A DNA stretch of 56,467 nucleotides from Candidatus Poseidoniaceae archaeon (lineage in GTDB: Archaea > Thermoplasmatota > Poseidoniia > Poseidoniales > Poseidoniaceae), in assembly GCA_049598575.1 (NCBI GenBank), contig JBMYNT010000005.1:1-56467 (forward strand), in the 5' to 3' direction. The notes beneath the pieces were generated by a model. It did not search any database and was not told the DNA's origin. It was given only the letters and a program-made list of their open reading frames with translations. Positions 7,926 to 47,560 of the stretch are shown piece after piece. The position numbers and the translations under genes were made by a program. Every line of letters starts with the position of its first letter. Position 1 is the first letter of the stretch.

Positions 7926-10445
7926 ATGCCAAAGAAGACCATTCGCAGCAGGTATCAACGCCGCATTCTCGATTGGTTGCTTGATGGCGGTGGAACGGTA
8001 TCCCAAGCTTCCGACGTTCTTGGCATTGCTATGCCTCACGCTTCGCTTGCAATGCGCCAATTGCGGGAATTGGGGGAGGTCCAACGTGACGATGGTGCAT
8101 CCATCCGTGGAGCAATCCATCGATTAACGCCAAAAGGAGCCGAGCATCTCCTGGTGGATTTGGTTGAACGTGTTCGTCAACAGGTAAGTACGATTCCGGA
8201 TGGAATGAACGCTGTCGTTCTTTCCAACGATCGTTCGAGTATTGTTCTCGGCGTACTTTCAGAGCCCTCCTCGAGATTGATTTCACTCCCTCGTCGAGTT
8301 GAATTGCTGGAACAAGATCACGAATATTCCTCCAGTGGAAAAGGAGGGGGGCTTTGGGCTGTTCAACGCGGGTCTTCGATTCCTTGGTATTCACTTGGTA
8401 CGATGGAACCTTCAACAGCACCAAGCGTACCGGTTGAGGGGACATTGACGGCATTTGCGACGCAATCGGACCGAATTGGGATTCTCCGTCTTCGTTTGCT
8501 TGAATCAACTGTGACTTGGGGCGTTGCAAACGGTACCTGGCTTCGATTGGAATCAAAAGAGATGGAAGGCCCATCCCAACTTCACATCGGAGAACATTCC
8601 ATTGGTCAGGTTGTAGGAACGCCTTTTGCGGTTCGTCCGGATAATGGTTTGTATGCACATTTGCCCTCGTCCGTCGACCGAACCTTGCTTGTATCATCGC
8701 TCGGCAATCATGCACAATTGATGACAGAATCATTGTCGTTCTCCAATCATCGTTCACTTCCGATCGATATCTTGGGGCCATGGATGAGGAAGCGACACCC
8801 ACGACTATCGACTGCGAAACGGAAAGCACGTCTCCGATCGTTGACTCGATGGCTCTTGACGGGACGTGGTAAACAACCACATCTGAACCTCCGGCGTGCA
8901 TTACTGGCAGACTTTGGGGAACGAACGTGGGTGGAACATTCCAACGCCATTGATGTTGTTCTTCTCGAGGGAATATCACAACATGGGGCCATATGCATCG
9001 TCGAATGGATGTTGGAATCAACCTCGTTTGACGTGGTTATCGAGTGGCCGTGGGCTGAAGTTGATGATGTTCCGTTAATGGAACGGCTGCTCGCCTCAGG
9101 ACGATGCAGATGTCTCATTACCTCTCGTGGTGAAGCGAAGGAATTTTCCGGTAAATCCGCTACATTGCTTCCAACTGATCAACTCGCAACCGTATCCTAT
9201 CGCCCACAGGAATCCTACGAGTTTCGTGTTGAATTACAGCGCACTGCAACACGTTCCGAGCCGGAAGCGACGCGAGAAGGCATCCCTTCATCTGCAAAGG
9301 AACTCATGCTGTGGTTCCAGTCTGGAGGTCTGGACGAATCGGTCTTATCAGGTGATGCTGCATCATCGAAGGACGTTCAACAAGACATCCGCAAAGCAAT
9401 GCGTTTGTTCCCGCAAGGAGATTCTGATTTTGCAAACAGTGTTGAACGACAATCGCCCCTGGCTGCATGGATTGCAAGTCCGGATGAAGAGCGGCCAACT
9501 CGATGGAAACGGATCGCTGACGTAGTTCCATTTGGCTGGATTGATCTTGTGAATGTTGGTCAGTTGGATGCCGTTGAACTTGTTCAAGCCATGCAACGAA
9601 CCGATACGGTCTGGAAACAACAAGCTGTTCGACAAGTTGTCGATGATTGTCAGGCTGATTCATCTCTTCTTATCGATCTTGTACCCCTCTTGAACGTGGA
9701 AGCGACCAAAGCAATGGCTGCTCATGTCCTCCTTCTCCTGAGTCGGACGTATCGTTCGGAACTTGAATCCATTCTTCCAAAGGCAGCAACGATTTGGTTG
9801 GATGCACCATTCGAGGAGGAACAGATCTTGAATGTCCTCTTTGGAACCAACTCGGGAACAACCTTCGATGATGAATTGCTTCTGCGTTTCCTCAGAGGTG
9901 CTCTTGTGCATCCACGAGGTTCACTGTTGCGAGTCTGGGCGCAAATGATTGATCTTTTCGAACAACGTGCACCGATTTCACTGGATGTGATGCGCACATG
10001 CATGAATGTCCTGCCAGAACAGTGGTGGTCGACGTGGGCGTTGGACTGGCTCGATGCACAGTTGTCAACAGCGGGTGGTCGCGAATGGCTCGCTCATCAT
10101 CCGAAGAATTGGCCAGCATTCATCTTTCGACCAAAAGGAGAGCAAATCGGTTTGCCAGGTTATCCACGGCAACACCAAGGTTATGTCGATCGTCCAGCAT
10201 TGAAACTCAACATATTGATGCTTCCTGAAGGTGAGGGGACGGCTGCGCTCATGGATGTACATGATATGATTCAACGAATGGAAAACAATGGTTCAGTTCA
10301 CGTTGGAAGAATTCACCCATTGGTCGGTTGGTTGGCATGTGATGTTGAGACATGGCCTGATTTTAGTATGGAAGAACTCCTTGATGGGAGCCAAGAAGTT
10401 GCGAAACTTCTGATTGGACGGGCGATGCTGCACCGAATGTCTTGA
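7926..10445 (+). CDS. Large hypothetical protein with N-terminal winged helix-turn-helix
   Basis: 839-aa ORF; ILDWLLDGGGTVSQASDVLGIAMPHASLAMRQLRELGEV...HRLTPKG resembles an ArsR/MarR wHTH; remainder not recognised. Confidence 0.75.
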   Translation: MPKKTIRSRYQRRILDWLLDGGGTVSQASDVLGIAMPHASLAMRQLRELGEVQRDDGASIRGAIHRLTPKGAEHLLVDLVERVRQQVSTIPDGMNAVVLSNDRSSIVLGVLSEPSSRLISLPRRVELLEQDHEYSSSGKGGGLWAVQRGSSIPWYSLGTMEPSTAPSVPVEGTLTAFATQSDRIGILRLRLLESTVTWGVANGTWLRLESKEMEGPSQLHIGEHSIGQVVGTPFAVRPDNGLYAHLPSSVDRTLLVSSLGNHAQLMTESLSFSNHRSLPIDILGPWMRKRHPRLSTAKRKARLRSLTRWLLTGRGKQPHLNLRRALLADFGERTWVEHSNAIDVVLLEGISQHGAICIVEWMLESTSFDVVIEWPWAEVDDVPLMERLLASGRCRCLITSRGEAKEFSGKSATLLPTDQLATVSYRPQESYEFRVELQRTATRSEPEATREGIPSSAKELMLWFQSGGLDESVLSGDAASSKDVQQDIRKAMRLFPQGDSDFANSVERQSPLAAWIASPDEERPTRWKRIADVVPFGWIDLVNVGQLDAVELVQAMQRTDTVWKQQAVRQVVDDCQADSSLLIDLVPLLNVEATKAMAAHVLLLLSRTYRSELESILPKAATIWLDAPFEEEQILNVLFGTNSGTTFDDELLLRFLRGALVHPRGSLLRVWAQMIDLFEQRAPISLDVMRTCMNVLPEQWWSTWALDWLDAQLSTAGGREWLAHHPKNWPAFIFRPKGEQIGLPGYPRQHQGYVDRPALKLNILMLPEGEGTAALMDVHDMIQRMENNGSVHVGRIHPLVGWLACDVETWPDFSMEELLDGSQEVAKLLIGRAMLHRMS

Positions 10446-10549
10446 TGGCCGATGTATTGAAATGCAACGTGTTTGAGCGCAAGTCGCCGTACGTGCAACA
10501 TCAGCCTGAGCTACTGTGAAATTGCAATGACGTCTGATACCAACGATAC

Positions 10550-10752
10550 GGTCCGCTATCGAAGACTGGGAGGACCCCTCGGGGAGTGAATTCCGGTGCA
10601 AAAGCGGAAACCCGGGCTGGACTATGGGTCCTCGATCGACTTCGGGATGAAATCGAGACAACCAACCGGCTCTACAGTACGCCCTGATACCGAGGGTCAG
10701 GCCTTCGAGGAAACAATGAACAAGGCCGTTAGGTATCAGGGCACAGCTTTTT
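10550..10752 (+). ncRNA. Three-hairpin archaeal H/ACA pseudouridylation guide RNA
   Basis: Three hairpins, each with lower stem, internal pocket, upper stem and K-turn (GA...3-nt bulge-GA); ACA boxes at 10674-10676 and 10743-10745; 3' T-run; pockets complementary to conserved 23S rRNA sequences. Confidence 0.8.
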
Positions 10753-10811
10753 GCTACATTCATTCGATTTGAAGCGATGTTCTCAAAGGCCGTATGCTTC
10801 AGCCAAGCCTC

Positions 10812-11834
10812 ATGGAAGTGGACCGTTCCTTTCGTCGATGTCTCATCGGTGGAACGTTTGACAGATTCCATTCAGGTCATCAACTCCTCATCCAAACAGC
10901 ATTGCGTCAAGCAGATTTCATTGAAGTTCATGTTGTCAACGATGAAATGGCTCAAGCAAAAGGTGATTGGATTCAATCCTTGGACGATCGAATGGAAACA
11001 TTACTCAATTGGCTGAGCGATACAGCGCATTTGCGATACGAAGTACACGTCCTCAACGATCCGCATGGGCCTGCACCAACGCATCGAACGGCAGACTGTA
11101 TTGTTGCTACGGTTGAGACCATTCCTCGATGTCATCAAATCAACGAGCGAAGATATGAGAACGGGCTTCCTCCACTCTCAATTCTTGAAGCTCCACACTT
11201 GAGCGACGAACTTGGGGGAATCTTGTCATCGAGTCGTATCCGTCTCGGTCTTATTGATCAAGAAGGGCATCCATGGATTCCACCTTCGTACGAAGGAAAG
11301 ATTCTGCGTATGCCTGCAGTTCTCGATGATGAGTTCAAGACGCCAATGGGTGAATTGTTTGAAGGACCAGAAGATGCTCCTGAGGTGGCCTTATCCGCCA
11401 TGCTGGAGGCTCTACCAGAAAATCACGGTACGCTCGTCGCAGTAGGTGATGTGACCGTGAAGGGTCTGATGGACATGGGTGTTCTGCCAGACATTGCGTT
11501 CATTGATGGCCAAACCAAGCGAGAAGCATTGGACGCTTCGTTGCTCGTTCGAGGAGATGCATACGCACTACAGAGAAGCGTTGTTAATCCACCTGGTCAA
11601 TTAACGCCCGAACTGTTGGATGTTGTTCGTTGGGCTTTGGAACAGGACGATTCCGTTCTTGTCGAAGTTGATGGTGAGGAAGATCTAGCACCAATGTTTG
11701 TGCTTGCAACAGCTCCACTCGGTACGATTGTTGTCTATGGGCAACCTCGGCAAGGCGTTGTTATGCGTATTTTGGATATGGAAGCAAAACATCGTGCAAG
11801 GAACCTTCTTGTTCATTTTGAGGCAGAAGAATGA
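10812..11834 (+). CDS. coaD: Bifunctional phosphopantetheine adenylyltransferase / GTP-dependent dephospho-CoA kinase (DUF359)
   Basis: GGTFDRFHSGH (HxGH) and LSSSRIR in the N-half; VGDVT, DGQTKRE, NPPGQLT, DGEEDLA, YGQP in the C-half; start could be 10794. Confidence 0.87.
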   Translation: MEVDRSFRRCLIGGTFDRFHSGHQLLIQTALRQADFIEVHVVNDEMAQAKGDWIQSLDDRMETLLNWLSDTAHLRYEVHVLNDPHGPAPTHRTADCIVATVETIPRCHQINERRYENGLPPLSILEAPHLSDELGGILSSSRIRLGLIDQEGHPWIPPSYEGKILRMPAVLDDEFKTPMGELFEGPEDAPEVALSAMLEALPENHGTLVAVGDVTVKGLMDMGVLPDIAFIDGQTKREALDASLLVRGDAYALQRSVVNPPGQLTPELLDVVRWALEQDDSVLVEVDGEEDLAPMFVLATAPLGTIVVYGQPRQGVVMRILDMEAKHRARNLLVHFEAEE

Positions 11835-47488: not shown

Positions 47489-47560
47489 TGCGGATAGCGG
47501 GAGTCGAACCCACGACATAAGGTTGGAAACCTCAGATGATAACCACTTCACCATATCCGC
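47489..47560 (-). tRNA. tRNA-Gly (TCC)
   Basis: GCGGATA/TATCCGC acceptor stem, TGAGG-TTTCCAA-CCTTA anticodon arm, GTTCGAC T-loop; CCA not fully encoded. Confidence 0.95.

What the first reader, a model, noticed from the sequence alone, without database searches (positions are those of the whole stretch)
10550..10752. Unannotated triple-hairpin H/ACA guide RNA aimed at 23S rRNA functional centres
Seen, hairpin 3: GCCCTGATACC(10681-91)/GGTATCAGGGC(10732-42), pocket GAGGGTCA + GTTA, upper stem GGCCTT/AAGGCC, ACA 15 nt after the pocket, then a T-run. Hairpin 2: GGGCTGG/CCGGCTC, pocket ACTATGGGTC + ACAACCAA, CTCGAT/ATCGAG, ACA at 10674. Hairpin 1: TCCGCT/AGCGGA, pocket ATCGAAG + GCAAA. Each is capped by a K-turn (GA, short stem-loop including cUUCGg or gGAAAc, 3-nt bulge, GA). 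Known: this is the L7Ae/Cbf5 guide architecture. Inference, from recalled archaeal 23S consensus: pocket 3 reads UAAC-[UA]-UGACCCUC (H69 U1915, E. coli numbering), pocket 1 reads UUUGC-[UA]-CUUCGAU (U2496), pocket 2 reads GGUUGU-[UC]-GCCCAU (A-loop U2554/2555).
Basis: partly seen in the sequence, partly recalled or inferred. Interest (0 to 1): 0.82.

Follow-up and report, generated by a model that had tools for sequence, protein, structure and literature searches.

The report
Four-hairpin H/ACA pseudouridylation guide RNA
This is a real small RNA gene of a marine Group II archaeon that most likely guides the enzyme Cbf5 to convert chosen uridines of the large ribosomal RNA into pseudouridine; it is a diverged relative of a known three-hairpin guide RNA that has gained a fourth hairpin.

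Summary
The three targets it recalled are present in a same-genus 23S rRNA, at E. coli-equivalent positions 2496, 2555 (or 2554) and 1915.

- **A fourth hairpin.** The conserved unit starts at 10486, not 10550. A K-turn hairpin (H0, 10486-10552) has a pocket that fits position 2606.
- **No ACA on two hairpins.** H0 and hairpin 1 have no ANA/ACA box at the canonical 14-15 nt.
- **A known family.** The RNA is a diverged homologue of HgcG/Pab40/Pf7/Afu-4 (Rfam RF00064). In that family motif 1 and motif 3 hit the same two sites.

A covariance model finds the full four-hairpin RNA in 73 of 74 same-family genomes (Poseidoniaceae) and 29 of 74 genomes of a second family. Of 64 base pairs, 54 show compensatory changes, while the guide bases stay nearly invariant. 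Contigs from three metatranscriptome studies cover only 10486/10494-10742. Cbf5, Nop10, L7Ae and a Gar1-fold protein are encoded.

Verdict: a genuine H/ACA guide RNA and a new variant of a known kind. Pseudouridines themselves were not tested.

The parts
10449..10464 (+). Promoter-like element: a CGATG-type box followed by an A/T-rich TTGAAA-type box, about 22-37 nt upstream of the first base of H0
   Evidence: A similar motif (CGAYG..TTSAAA / GGATTCAAAA) stands at the same distance upstream of the RNA in most of the 48 loci printed. Its role as BRE/TATA is inferred, not tested.
10486..10750 (+). The whole small RNA gene, about 265 nt with four tandem hairpins
   Evidence: Conservation island. 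Covariance model R1 matches full length, 1-270, in 103 of 151 genomes of the order. RNA-library contigs of 249, 257 and 250 nt from three studies cover 10494-10742, 10486-10742 and 10494-10742.
10486..10552 (+). Lower stem 10487-94/10543-51 with bulged A10546; pocket strands 10495-99 and 10539-42; upper stem 10500-04/10534-38; K-turn GA 10508-09 and bulge+GA 10526-30; distal stem 10510-11/10524-25. No ANA box follows.
   Evidence: Alifold and compensatory changes within the genus. Helices 1-4 are 85-100% paired, and 13 of their 16 pairs change on both sides. Pocket bases are 0.90-0.98 conserved over 48 loci. GA/UGA are kept in 46 of 48. The pocket fits GGU-UU-GUUGC at the E. coli-2606 equivalent.
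10552..10608 (+). Lower stem 10552-57/10603-08; pocket strands 10558-64 and 10598-602; upper stem 10565-71/10591-97; K-turn GA 10573-74 and bulge+GA 10585-89. No ANA at 14-15 nt.
   Evidence: The rRNA-pairing pocket bases 10560-64 and 10598-600 are invariant in 48 of 48 loci, and 10601 in 0.96. Target UUGC-UA-CUUCGAU lies at the E. coli-2496 equivalent. A weak Rfam HgcG motif-1 hit covers this hairpin.
10614..10676 (+). Lower stem 10614-20/10666-72; pocket strands 10621-30 and 10658-65; upper stem 10631-36/10652-57; K-loop GA 10638-39, cUUCGg, bulge+GA 10646-50; ACA 10674-76.
   Evidence: A 15-nt 3' side plus one spacer and then ACA is found in 48 of 48 loci. Target GGUUGU-UC-GCCCAU gives U2555, or U2554 if read as UNN.
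10681..10745 (+). Lower stem 10681-91/10732-42; pocket strands 10692-99 and 10728-31; upper stem 10700-05/10722-27; K-loop GA 10707-08, gGAAAc, bulge+GA 10715-19; ACA 10743-45.
   Evidence: A 15-nt 3' side occurs in 45 of 48 loci and ACA follows in 47 of 48. Target UAAC-UA-UGACCCUC has 12 of 12 pairs at the E. coli-1915 equivalent in helix 69. It aligns to motif 3 of Rfam HgcG in relatives.
10748..10752 (+). T-run directly after the 3' ACA; likely archaeal terminator
   Evidence: T-rich sequence follows the ACA in most of the 48 loci printed. Its function is inferred.

Best explanation
Window 10486-10750 (+) encodes one small RNA of about 265 nt from a Poseidoniaceae (Marine Group IIa) archaeon. 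It is a box H/ACA guide RNA.

Each of its four hairpins carries a K-turn that should bind L7Ae, and an internal-loop 'pocket'. The two strands of each pocket base-pair with 23S rRNA on either side of an unpaired U-N. That presents the uridine to the pseudouridine synthase Cbf5, which works with Nop10 and Gar1.

Predicted sites, in E. coli numbering:
- H0: U2606 equivalent (helix 93)
- H1: U2496 equivalent (helix 89)
- H2: U2555, or U2554 (A-loop, helix 92)
- H3: U1915 (helix 69 loop)

H1-H3 are the diverged counterpart of the three-motif HgcG/Pab40/Pf7/Afu-4 RNA. H0 is an addition seen in the order Poseidoniales.

Shown here: the structure, its covariation, invariant guide bases, rRNA complementarity, presence in RNA libraries, and genes for the four proteins.

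Inferred: that pseudouridines are actually made, and that the two ACA-less hairpins (H0, H1) are active. They would be positioned by the K-turn/L7Ae-Nop10 side and their retained lower stems.
For: **Structure.** Over 47 distinct sequences from two families, 93.3% of pair cells are paired, against 70.3% in shuffles and 32-47% when partners are slid. Of 64 pairs, 54 change on both sides.

**Guide bases.** Bases that pair with rRNA are 0.96-1.00 conserved while stems average 0.58-0.76. K-turn GA/UGA are kept in 46-48 of 48 loci.

**Targets.** Each pocket's single best 23S match is at the named site. Shuffled pockets reach the observed score in 106, 12, 18 and 11 of 2000 trials for H0 to H3. Nothing better was found in the genome's own 16S or its 31 tRNAs. 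All four target strings are present in 7 of 8 23S loci of the order; the eighth is partial. E. coli numbering comes from alignment.

**Geometry.** H3 has 15 nt to ACA. H2 has 15 nt plus 1 to ACA, in 48 of 48 loci. Upper helices are 6 bp in H2 and H3. These fit the rules of Muller 2008 (PMC2377435, abstract and section 22).

**Homology.**
- Rfam HgcG hits Poseidoniales relatives at 42.9, 22.6 and 20.2 bits, E 1e-9 to 0.01.
- Model R1 hits 26 of 30 HgcG-positive loci elsewhere in the phylum. One of them is L139, which passes Rfam's cut-off at 92.7 bits.
- Pab40/Pf7/Afu-4 motifs 1 and 3 target P. abyssi 2588 and 2016 (helix 69).

**Expression.** RNA-library contigs from three studies equal the RNA and nothing else.

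**Proteins.** Cbf5 scores 323.6 bits and Nop10 40.4 bits. L7Ae-family proteins score 72 bits (the likely L7Ae) and 44 bits. A Gar1-fold protein matches 2ey4_C and 2hvy_B with target-normalised TM 0.85.
Against: - No pseudouridine mapping exists for this organism. Everything about activity is inference.
- The window's own assembly lacks a 23S gene, so targets were checked in another species of the genus (G024).
- H0 and H1 have no ANA box at 14-15 nt. Their 3' sides are 13 nt (34 of 48 loci) and 10-13 nt (45 of 48), and the bases that follow are not conserved.
- In H. volcanii sR-h45 the internal ANA was needed for the 5' hairpin of a two-hairpin guide (PMC7075261, abstract and section 22).
- H0 pairs only 3+5 bases, and 5.3% of shuffled pockets do as well.
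- H2's ACA is one base further out than Muller's 14-15 nt rule unless the UNN register is used. A guide base (C10630) is also unpaired.
- Single-sequence folding energy is not exceptional.
- Contigs show neither strand nor true ends. One RNA-library contig (X9) spans the whole 601-nt stretch.
- The window's own sequence scores only 9.1 bits against RF00064.
Confidence: 0.88

Rival explanations
1. Only the two canonical hairpins (H2, H3) guide pseudouridylation. H0 and H1 are degenerate or have another role, such as extra L7Ae binding, RNP assembly or stability, or chaperoning 23S domain V folding by base-pairing without catalysis.
For: - H0 and H1 lack an ANA box at the required distance in all lineages of the order.
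- H1 homologues outside the order keep ACA at 14-15 nt (my count on the three alignments shown), so Poseidoniales lost it.
- The internal ANA was required in sR-h45 (PMC7075261).
- H0 complementarity is short.
Against: - Pocket bases of H0 and H1 that face the rRNA are 0.96-1.00 conserved across two families while their stems turn over. That is the pattern expected of working guides; a pairing-only chaperone role would also give it.
- Their best matches fall on positions reported as pseudouridylated elsewhere: P. abyssi 2588, and the 2698 equivalent in eukaryotes.
- ACA is dispensable for typical single-hairpin guiding (PMC7075261 abstract). P. furiosus proteins accept ACA-less atypical guides (PMC11077068 discussion passage).
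Confidence: 0.3
2. The region is not an RNA gene. The conservation reflects the 192-codon open frame on the minus strand (10293-10871) or a regulatory leader of the downstream gene.
For: An ATG-started 192-aa frame overlaps the region on the minus strand. The downstream gene starts at 10794 on the same strand.
Against: - The 192-aa frame has no Pfam match.
- Conservation stops at 10486 and about 10745, inside that frame.
- Substitutions are compensatory in helices rather than codon-patterned.
- The unit keeps its own upstream promoter-like box and T-run in 48 loci.
- RNA contigs end at 10742, before the downstream gene.
Confidence: 0.02
3. It is a different K-turn RNA, such as a box C/D methylation guide or a composite of one.
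For: Four L7Ae-type K-turns are present. One Pyrococcus H/ACA RNA (Pab21) exists with or without a C/D motif (PMC2377435 section 16).
Against: - Read directly, no hairpin has a C box (RUGAUGA) and D box (CUGA) pair flanking 10-12-nt guides. This motif definition is recalled, not taken from a call.
- Rfam in E-value mode reports only the H/ACA family HgcG.
- Two hairpins end in ACA at the H/ACA distance.
Confidence: 0.02

Closest known systems
HgcG / Pab40 / Pf7 / Afu-4 (Rfam RF00064), the three-motif archaeal H/ACA sRNA
   Same: Tandem K-turn hairpins in the same order. Motif 3 guides the helix-69 loop uridine (P. abyssi 2016). Motif 1 guides P. abyssi 2588, which I equate with E. coli 2496. 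The position first proposed for Afu-4 motif 2 (A. fulgidus 2601 = P. abyssi 2647) equals E. coli 2555 by the same offset (PMC2377435 sections 18, 26, 27). Profile links run in both directions.
   Different: - It has an extra 5' hairpin (H0). Rfam model positions 1-57 are unstructured.
- Hairpin 1 has lost its ACA and has a shortened 3' side.
- The window scores 9.1 bits against a cut-off of 77.
- Muller et al. rejected the 2647 assignment for Afu-4 and Pf7 motif 2 on their structural rules, and Pab40 motif 2 acts at position 1932.
- The offset of 92 rests on that paper's RluE/RluB/RluC statement plus E. coli positions that I recalled.
Haloferax volcanii sR-h45 (two-hairpin H/ACA sRNA)
   Same: A multi-hairpin guide for a very small set of 23S pseudouridines. 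Its 3' hairpin targets the helix-69 loop (1940/1942 in H. volcanii numbering) (PMC7075261 abstract).
   Different: It has two hairpins. Its helix-69 pocket leaves UNUN unpaired and makes two pseudouridines, whereas here only UA is unpaired. Its 5' hairpin targets another site (2605 in H. volcanii numbering) and needs its ANA box.
Atypical 'H/ACA-like' guides of Pyrobaculum and Sulfolobus
   Same: They work without an ACA box and are positioned from the K-turn side (PMC4652768 introduction; PMC11077068 discussion).
   Different: Those are single hairpins that also lack the lower stem. H0 and H1 keep lower stems of 8-9 and 6 bp and sit inside a multi-hairpin RNA.
Eukaryotic snoRNAs for the same rRNA positions
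   Same: The same four ribosomal positions are pseudouridylated by H/ACA snoRNPs in eukaryotes. Muller 2008 states that P. abyssi 2016 and 2588 are highly conserved in eukaryal rRNA, and that 2698 corresponds to a frequently modified eukaryal position. The yeast guide names (snR191, snR46, snR10, snR42) are recalled, not from a call.
   Different: Eukaryotes use separate two-hairpin snoRNAs with H and ACA boxes and Nhp2 instead of L7Ae/K-turn.

Membership tests
Archaeal box H/ACA guide sRNA | Hairpin of lower stem, internal-loop pocket and upper stem | tested here: met
   Four such hairpins. 54 of 64 pairs covary, with 93.3% paired. Within the genus 99.4% are paired.
Archaeal box H/ACA guide sRNA | K-turn or K-loop (tandem G.A pairs, 3-nt bulge) in the upper part, at a 'GA stem' of 8-11 layers | tested here: met
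   GA and UGA are kept in 46-48 of 48 loci for all four hairpins. My count gives GA stems of 10, 10, 9 and 9 layers for H0 to H3. The range comes from the PMC4652768 introduction.
Archaeal box H/ACA guide sRNA | ANA (usually ACA) box 14-15 (to 16) nt 3' of the upper stem | tested here: inconclusive
   Met for H3 (15 nt, ACA in 47 of 48 loci). Met for H2 (15 nt plus 1 spacer, ACA in 48 of 48). Not met for H0 (mostly 13 nt, no conserved ANA) or H1 (10-13 nt, no conserved ANA).
Archaeal box H/ACA guide sRNA | Bipartite complementarity of the pocket to rRNA around an unpaired UN | tested here: met
   Pairs on the 3'-guide plus 5'-guide sides are 4+8, 6+6, 4+7 and 3+5 for H3, H2, H1 and H0, in a same-genus 23S. 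The genome's own 23S was not available.
Archaeal box H/ACA guide sRNA | Cbf5, Nop10, L7Ae and Gar1 encoded by the organism | tested here: met
   Cbf5 matches TIGR00425 at 323.6 bits. Nop10 scores 40.4 bits. L7Ae-family proteins score 72.1 and 44.5 bits. Gar1 is only 15-18 bits by Pfam, but the predicted fold (pLDDT 83) matches Gar1 chains 2ey4_C and 2hvy_B first.
Archaeal box H/ACA guide sRNA | Pseudouridine actually present at the predicted rRNA positions | not testable with these tools
   Needs chemical or direct-RNA mapping.
Rfam RF00064 (HgcG/Pab40) | Score at or above the gathering threshold (77 bits) | tested here: not met
   The window scores 9.1 bits. Poseidoniales relatives score 20-43 bits. 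In the phylum, 47 of 151 genomes match at E<=0.001 but only 1 passes the cut-off.
Rfam RF00064 (HgcG/Pab40) | Homology shown by profile links and shared guide sequences and targets | tested here: met
   R1 hits 26 of 30 RF00064-positive loci, including L139 at 60.3 bits, E 9e-19. The aligned pockets share the GGGUCC..ACAACC and GGGUCA..GUUA motifs.
Atypical H/ACA-like guides (Pyrobaculum type) | Truncated or absent lower stem together with absent ACA | tested here: not met
   H0 and H1 lack ACA but keep covarying lower stems (helices 1-2 and 5-6).

The most novel reading that the evidence does not exclude
Poseidoniales pack what may be their whole Cbf5 guide repertoire into one four-module transcript. 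That is one module more than the '1-3 hairpins' stated for archaeal H/ACA RNAs.

Two of the modules work without any ACA/ANA box while keeping a lower stem. That would make them a missing intermediate between canonical guides and the 'atypical' ACA-less guides of Crenarchaeota.

The added module moves the helix-93 modification to the position used by eukaryotes (E. coli 2606 equivalent) rather than the 2605 equivalent used in Pyrococcus. The same lineage also has a Gar1 with zinc ribbons and an RGG-rich tail reminiscent of eukaryotic GAR domains.
Probability: 0.4. Interest if true: 0.62.

Novelty: new variant of a known kind. Interest (0 to 1): 0.5.

Why it matters
Marine Group II archaea are abundant and uncultured, and nothing about their RNA modification came up in my searches. 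No paper in the searchable library combines Poseidoniales or Marine Group II with Cbf5. One unrelated paper mentions pseudouridine once.

This locus gives four concrete, testable predictions of pseudouridines at ribosomal functional centres: helix 69, the A-loop, helix 89 and helix 93. It also supplies a covariance model that annotates the gene across the order.

For the H/ACA field it offers a natural case of a four-hairpin archaeal guide. Reviews and recent papers say 1-3 hairpins. It also shows ACA-less modules that retain lower stems, which bears on how strictly Cbf5 needs the ACA anchor.

It does not change what H/ACA RNAs are understood to do.

Tried and rejected
- **Rfam at gathering thresholds.** On the whole window it reported only a tRNA at 47489-47560.
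- **Single-sequence folding.** It did not separate the strands or beat shuffles convincingly, so I relied on covariation.
- **Plain blastn.** It found the RNA only within the genus (32 of 36 genomes; 0 of 24 in other families). The covariance model was needed to reach further.
- **Class-level search with R1.** It found nothing in the sister order (0 of 43 and 0 of 2 genomes, strict filters). With filters off, the one sister-order locus fetched (L172) does match at 61.5 bits. It is a three-hairpin RNA, with a TATA-like ATTATAT where H0 would be.
- **Misses in the second family.** These are partly filter losses. The complete genome G039 was missed but found at E 3e-24 with laxer filters. G036, G037 and G025 still gave nothing significant.
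- **Other targets.** The own 16S and 31 tRNAs gave nothing as good as the 23S sites. The best was 3+7 pairs of H3 near a tRNA-His.
- **Search for further H/ACA hairpins.** A home-made descriptor (K-turn, 5-6 bp upper stem, ACA at 14-16 nt) gave 33 hits in the genome against 6 in a simple shuffle, and it included H2 and H3. The two others with the best rRNA complementarity lie inside 422- and 312-codon open frames, so I do not claim them. The descriptor is strict and the genome is 90% complete, so 'sole H/ACA RNA' is not established.
- **Gar1.** It was missed at E<=0.001 and by PDB sequence search. Only the fold search identified it.
- **RNA contigs.** They say nothing about parts without cover, strand or abundance. 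The X9 contig spanning the whole stretch may be DNA carry-over or read-through.
- **Papers and supplements.** Hansen et al. 2002 on archaeal A-loop modifications is not held. Supplementary figure S1 of Muller 2008, which shows the Afu-4/Pf7 motif 2 pairings, could not be seen. Both bear on whether an A-loop pseudouridine is known in Archaea.
- **Papers read.**
  - PMC2377435: abstract, passages, and sections 18, 26 and 27.
  - PMC7075261: abstract, outline and section 22.
  - PMC4652768: abstract and introduction.
  - PMC7991803 and PMC11077068: passages only.
  - PMC9458449 and PMC10877094: search listing only.
Full report
**What is in the sequence.** Rfam at its gathering thresholds reports nothing here. 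In E-value mode the only hit is a 9.1-bit match of hairpin 1 to HgcG/Pab40, an archaeal H/ACA family. Single-sequence folding recovers the three lower stems and the upper stems of hairpins 1 and 2, but its energy is not exceptional on either strand.

**The unit is larger than reported.** I aligned 27 same-genus loci with 400-nt flanks. Identity to the window is 0.91-0.98 per 20-nt bin for 10500-10739, and the detailed view puts the left edge of the island at about 10486. The flanks are at 0.56-0.90, mostly 0.65-0.86.

The extra 65 nt fold into a fourth hairpin, H0:
- a lower stem of 8-9 pairs with one bulge
- a 5+4-nt internal loop
- a 5-bp upper stem
- a K-turn (GA at 10508-09, bulge plus GA at 10526-30)

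A compensatory A-U to G-C change in its lower stem appears already within the genus.

**Organism and machinery.** The window is contig C5 of a 1.84-Mb, 90%-complete assembly. Close relatives of its Cbf5 carry record titles such as Candidatus Poseidoniaceae or Poseidoniales archaeon, that is, Marine Group IIa.

The genome encodes:
- Cbf5 (323.6 bits to TIGR00425)
- Nop10
- two L7Ae-family proteins, of which the 138-aa one looks like L7Ae
- a 342-aa protein whose first ~80 residues are only weakly Gar1-like by Pfam (15.4 bits)

For that last protein, the AlphaFold model of the N-terminal domain (pLDDT 83) matches Gar1 chains of the archaeal Cbf5-Nop10-Gar1 complex and the P. furiosus H/ACA RNP before anything else. 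The target-normalised TM-score is 0.85 at 1.6-1.9 A rmsd.

**Targets.** The assembly has no 23S gene, so I used the full-length 23S of another species of the genus (G024, locus L006). The best bipartite match of each pocket around an unpaired U-N is unique:

| Hairpin | Match in 23S | Pairs | E. coli equivalent |
|---|---|---|---|
| H3 | UAAC-UA-UGACCCUC | 12 of 12 | U1915 |
| H2 | GGUUGU-UC-GCCCAU | 6+6, guide C10630 unpaired | U2555 |
| H1 | UUGC-UA-CUUCGAU | 4+7 | 2496 (a C in E. coli, a U here) |
| H0 | GGU-UU-GUUGC | 3+5 | 2606 |

The matches come, and the numbering from a MAFFT alignment to E. coli rrlH.

H2 can also be read as U2554 with three unpaired bases. That register would bring its ACA distance to 15 nt.

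Shuffling the pocket strands reaches the observed score in 11 (H3), 18 (H2), 12 (H1) and 106 (H0) of 2000 trials. The genome's own 16S and its 31 tRNAs offer nothing as good. All four target strings occur in 7 of the 8 23S loci fetched from the order. The eighth is a partial gene that holds two of them.

**Conservation and covariation.** A covariance model of the four-hairpin unit (R1) finds a full-length match in 103 of 151 genomes of the order:
- 73 of 74 in the window's family
- 29 of 74 in a second family
- 0 of 2 in a third

Some misses are filter losses. The complete genome G039 scores E 3e-24 with laxer filters, and its sequence shows all four hairpins.

I aligned 48 loci to the model:
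- 93.3% of pair cells are paired, against 70.3% in shuffles and 32-47% with slid partners. The alignment was fitted to the model, which favours the structure, so the slid controls are the fairer comparison.
- 54 of 64 pairs change on both sides.
- The pocket bases that face the rRNA are 0.96-1.00 conserved, while stems average 0.58-0.76.
- The K-turn GA and UGA are kept in 46-48 of 48 loci.

A promoter-like box sits 22-37 nt upstream of H0, and T-rich sequence follows the last ACA, in most loci.

**Transcription.** Ten runs on record as RNA hold part of the stretch. I laid four of them, from four studies. In three, a whole contig of 249, 257 or 250 nt covers 10494-10742, 10486-10742 and 10494-10742 and nothing else. 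A fourth run has a contig across the whole 601 nt. Contigs cannot give strand or exact ends, so this is a hint, not proof. Still, it matches the conserved unit and includes H0.

**How it compares with the rules.** Muller et al. 2008 (PMC2377435; abstract, sections 18, 22, 26, 27) found that active Pyrococcus motifs have an upper helix of 5-6 bp and 14-15 nt between the ANA box and the target.
- H3 fits: 6 bp, 15 nt, ACA in 47 of 48 loci.
- H2 fits, with one extra spacer base before ACA in 48 of 48 loci.
- H0 and H1 do not fit. Their 3' sides are mostly 13 nt and 10-13 nt, and no ANA follows.

The same hairpin 1 in three Thermoplasmatota homologues outside the order does end in ACA after 14-15 nt (my count on the alignments). 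So the box was lost in Poseidoniales while the guide bases stayed fixed.

The literature is divided on whether such modules can work:
- ACA is dispensable for typical single-hairpin guiding, but the internal ANA of the two-hairpin sR-h45 is required (PMC7075261).
- ACA-less atypical guides are active with Pyrococcus proteins (PMC11077068 passage).

**Family.** Rfam HgcG/Pab40 matches Poseidoniales relatives below threshold but significantly: L109 at 42.9 bits over model positions 58-276, which are the three hairpins. The first 57 model positions are unstructured flank, so the known family has three hairpins and H0 is extra.

RF00064 matches 47 of 151 genomes of the phylum at E<=0.001, with only one above the cut-off. 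R1 in turn hits 26 of those 30 loci. I inspected four homologues outside the order. In three the H0 stretch is missing: 3 and 7 nt stand in its place in L139 and L164, and 37 nt holding a TATA-like box in L172. In the fourth, L148, a weakly aligned stretch lacks both pocket strands.

Muller et al. report that motifs 1 and 3 of Pab40, Pf7 and Afu-4 guide P. abyssi 2588 and 2016 (helix 69). They also report that Afu-4 motif 2 was first assigned to the equivalent of P. abyssi 2647.

I derive a domain-V offset of 92 as follows. The paper states that Pab35 makes the pseudouridines that RluE, RluB and RluC make in E. coli. I combine that with the E. coli positions, which I recalled. With this offset, 2588, 2647 and 2698 become E. 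coli 2496, 2555 and 2606. P. abyssi modifies 2697, not 2698, and the paper calls 2698 a position frequently modified in eukaryotes.

**Novelty.** A 2008 paper, a 2021 review and a 2024 paper each state that archaeal H/ACA RNAs have one to three hairpins. A search for four-hairpin wording together with Cbf5 returned only eukaryotic cases. Searches combining Poseidoniales or Marine Group II with pseudouridine or Cbf5 returned one unrelated paper and none.

I therefore rate this a new variant of a known kind. It is certain as an H/ACA-type guide RNA gene, probable as a working guide for helix 69 and the A-loop, and open for the two ACA-less modules.

Noticed in passing
Own genome, contig C2:57469-58497 (+) (locus L176 670-1698): The likely Gar1 is a 342-aa protein. 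It has an N-terminal Gar1-fold barrel (top fold hits are Gar1 chains 2ey4_C and 2hvy_B), then two RanBP2-type zinc ribbons (PF00641, 50 bits) and a long RGG/RD-rich tail. Archaeal Gar1 proteins are usually the bare barrel (recalled), and the tail recalls eukaryotic GAR domains. The same weak Gar1 signal inside long open frames appears in 22 of 41 Poseidoniaceae genomes.
   Followed up: partly
window 10449-10464 and equivalent places in 48 loci: A conserved upstream box (CGAYG followed by TTSAAA or GGATTCAAAA) stands about 22-37 nt before the RNA. It could serve as a promoter consensus for Poseidoniales small-RNA genes.
   Followed up: no
Loci L100, L101, L103, L104, L106, L108, L110, L098 (second family of the order): The 3' guide of H2 reads ACUACC instead of ACAACC. 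That puts a U opposite the U2552 equivalent, although the A-loop target string is identical in all seven full 23S genes seen. H2 may be weakened or retargeted in these lineages.
   Followed up: no
window 7926-10445 (+): The 839-aa open reading frame just upstream of the RNA gene has no Pfam match at E<=0.001.
   Followed up: no
window 10794-11834 (+): The downstream gene combines a cytidylyltransferase-like N-terminus with a DUF359 domain. It is unrelated to the RNA as far as can be seen.
   Followed up: no
Own genome C6:33054-33159 (+) and C9:16666-16763 (-): These H/ACA-like descriptor hits have 13 and 12 pairs to 16S and 23S respectively, but they lie inside 422- and 312-codon open frames and are probably chance.
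   Followed up: partly
Own genome and relatives: 16S and 23S genes lie on different contigs (own 16S on C19; in G024 the 23S is on C2 and the 16S on C9). 23S is missing from most assemblies of the genus: 3 of 24 had it.
   Followed up: no
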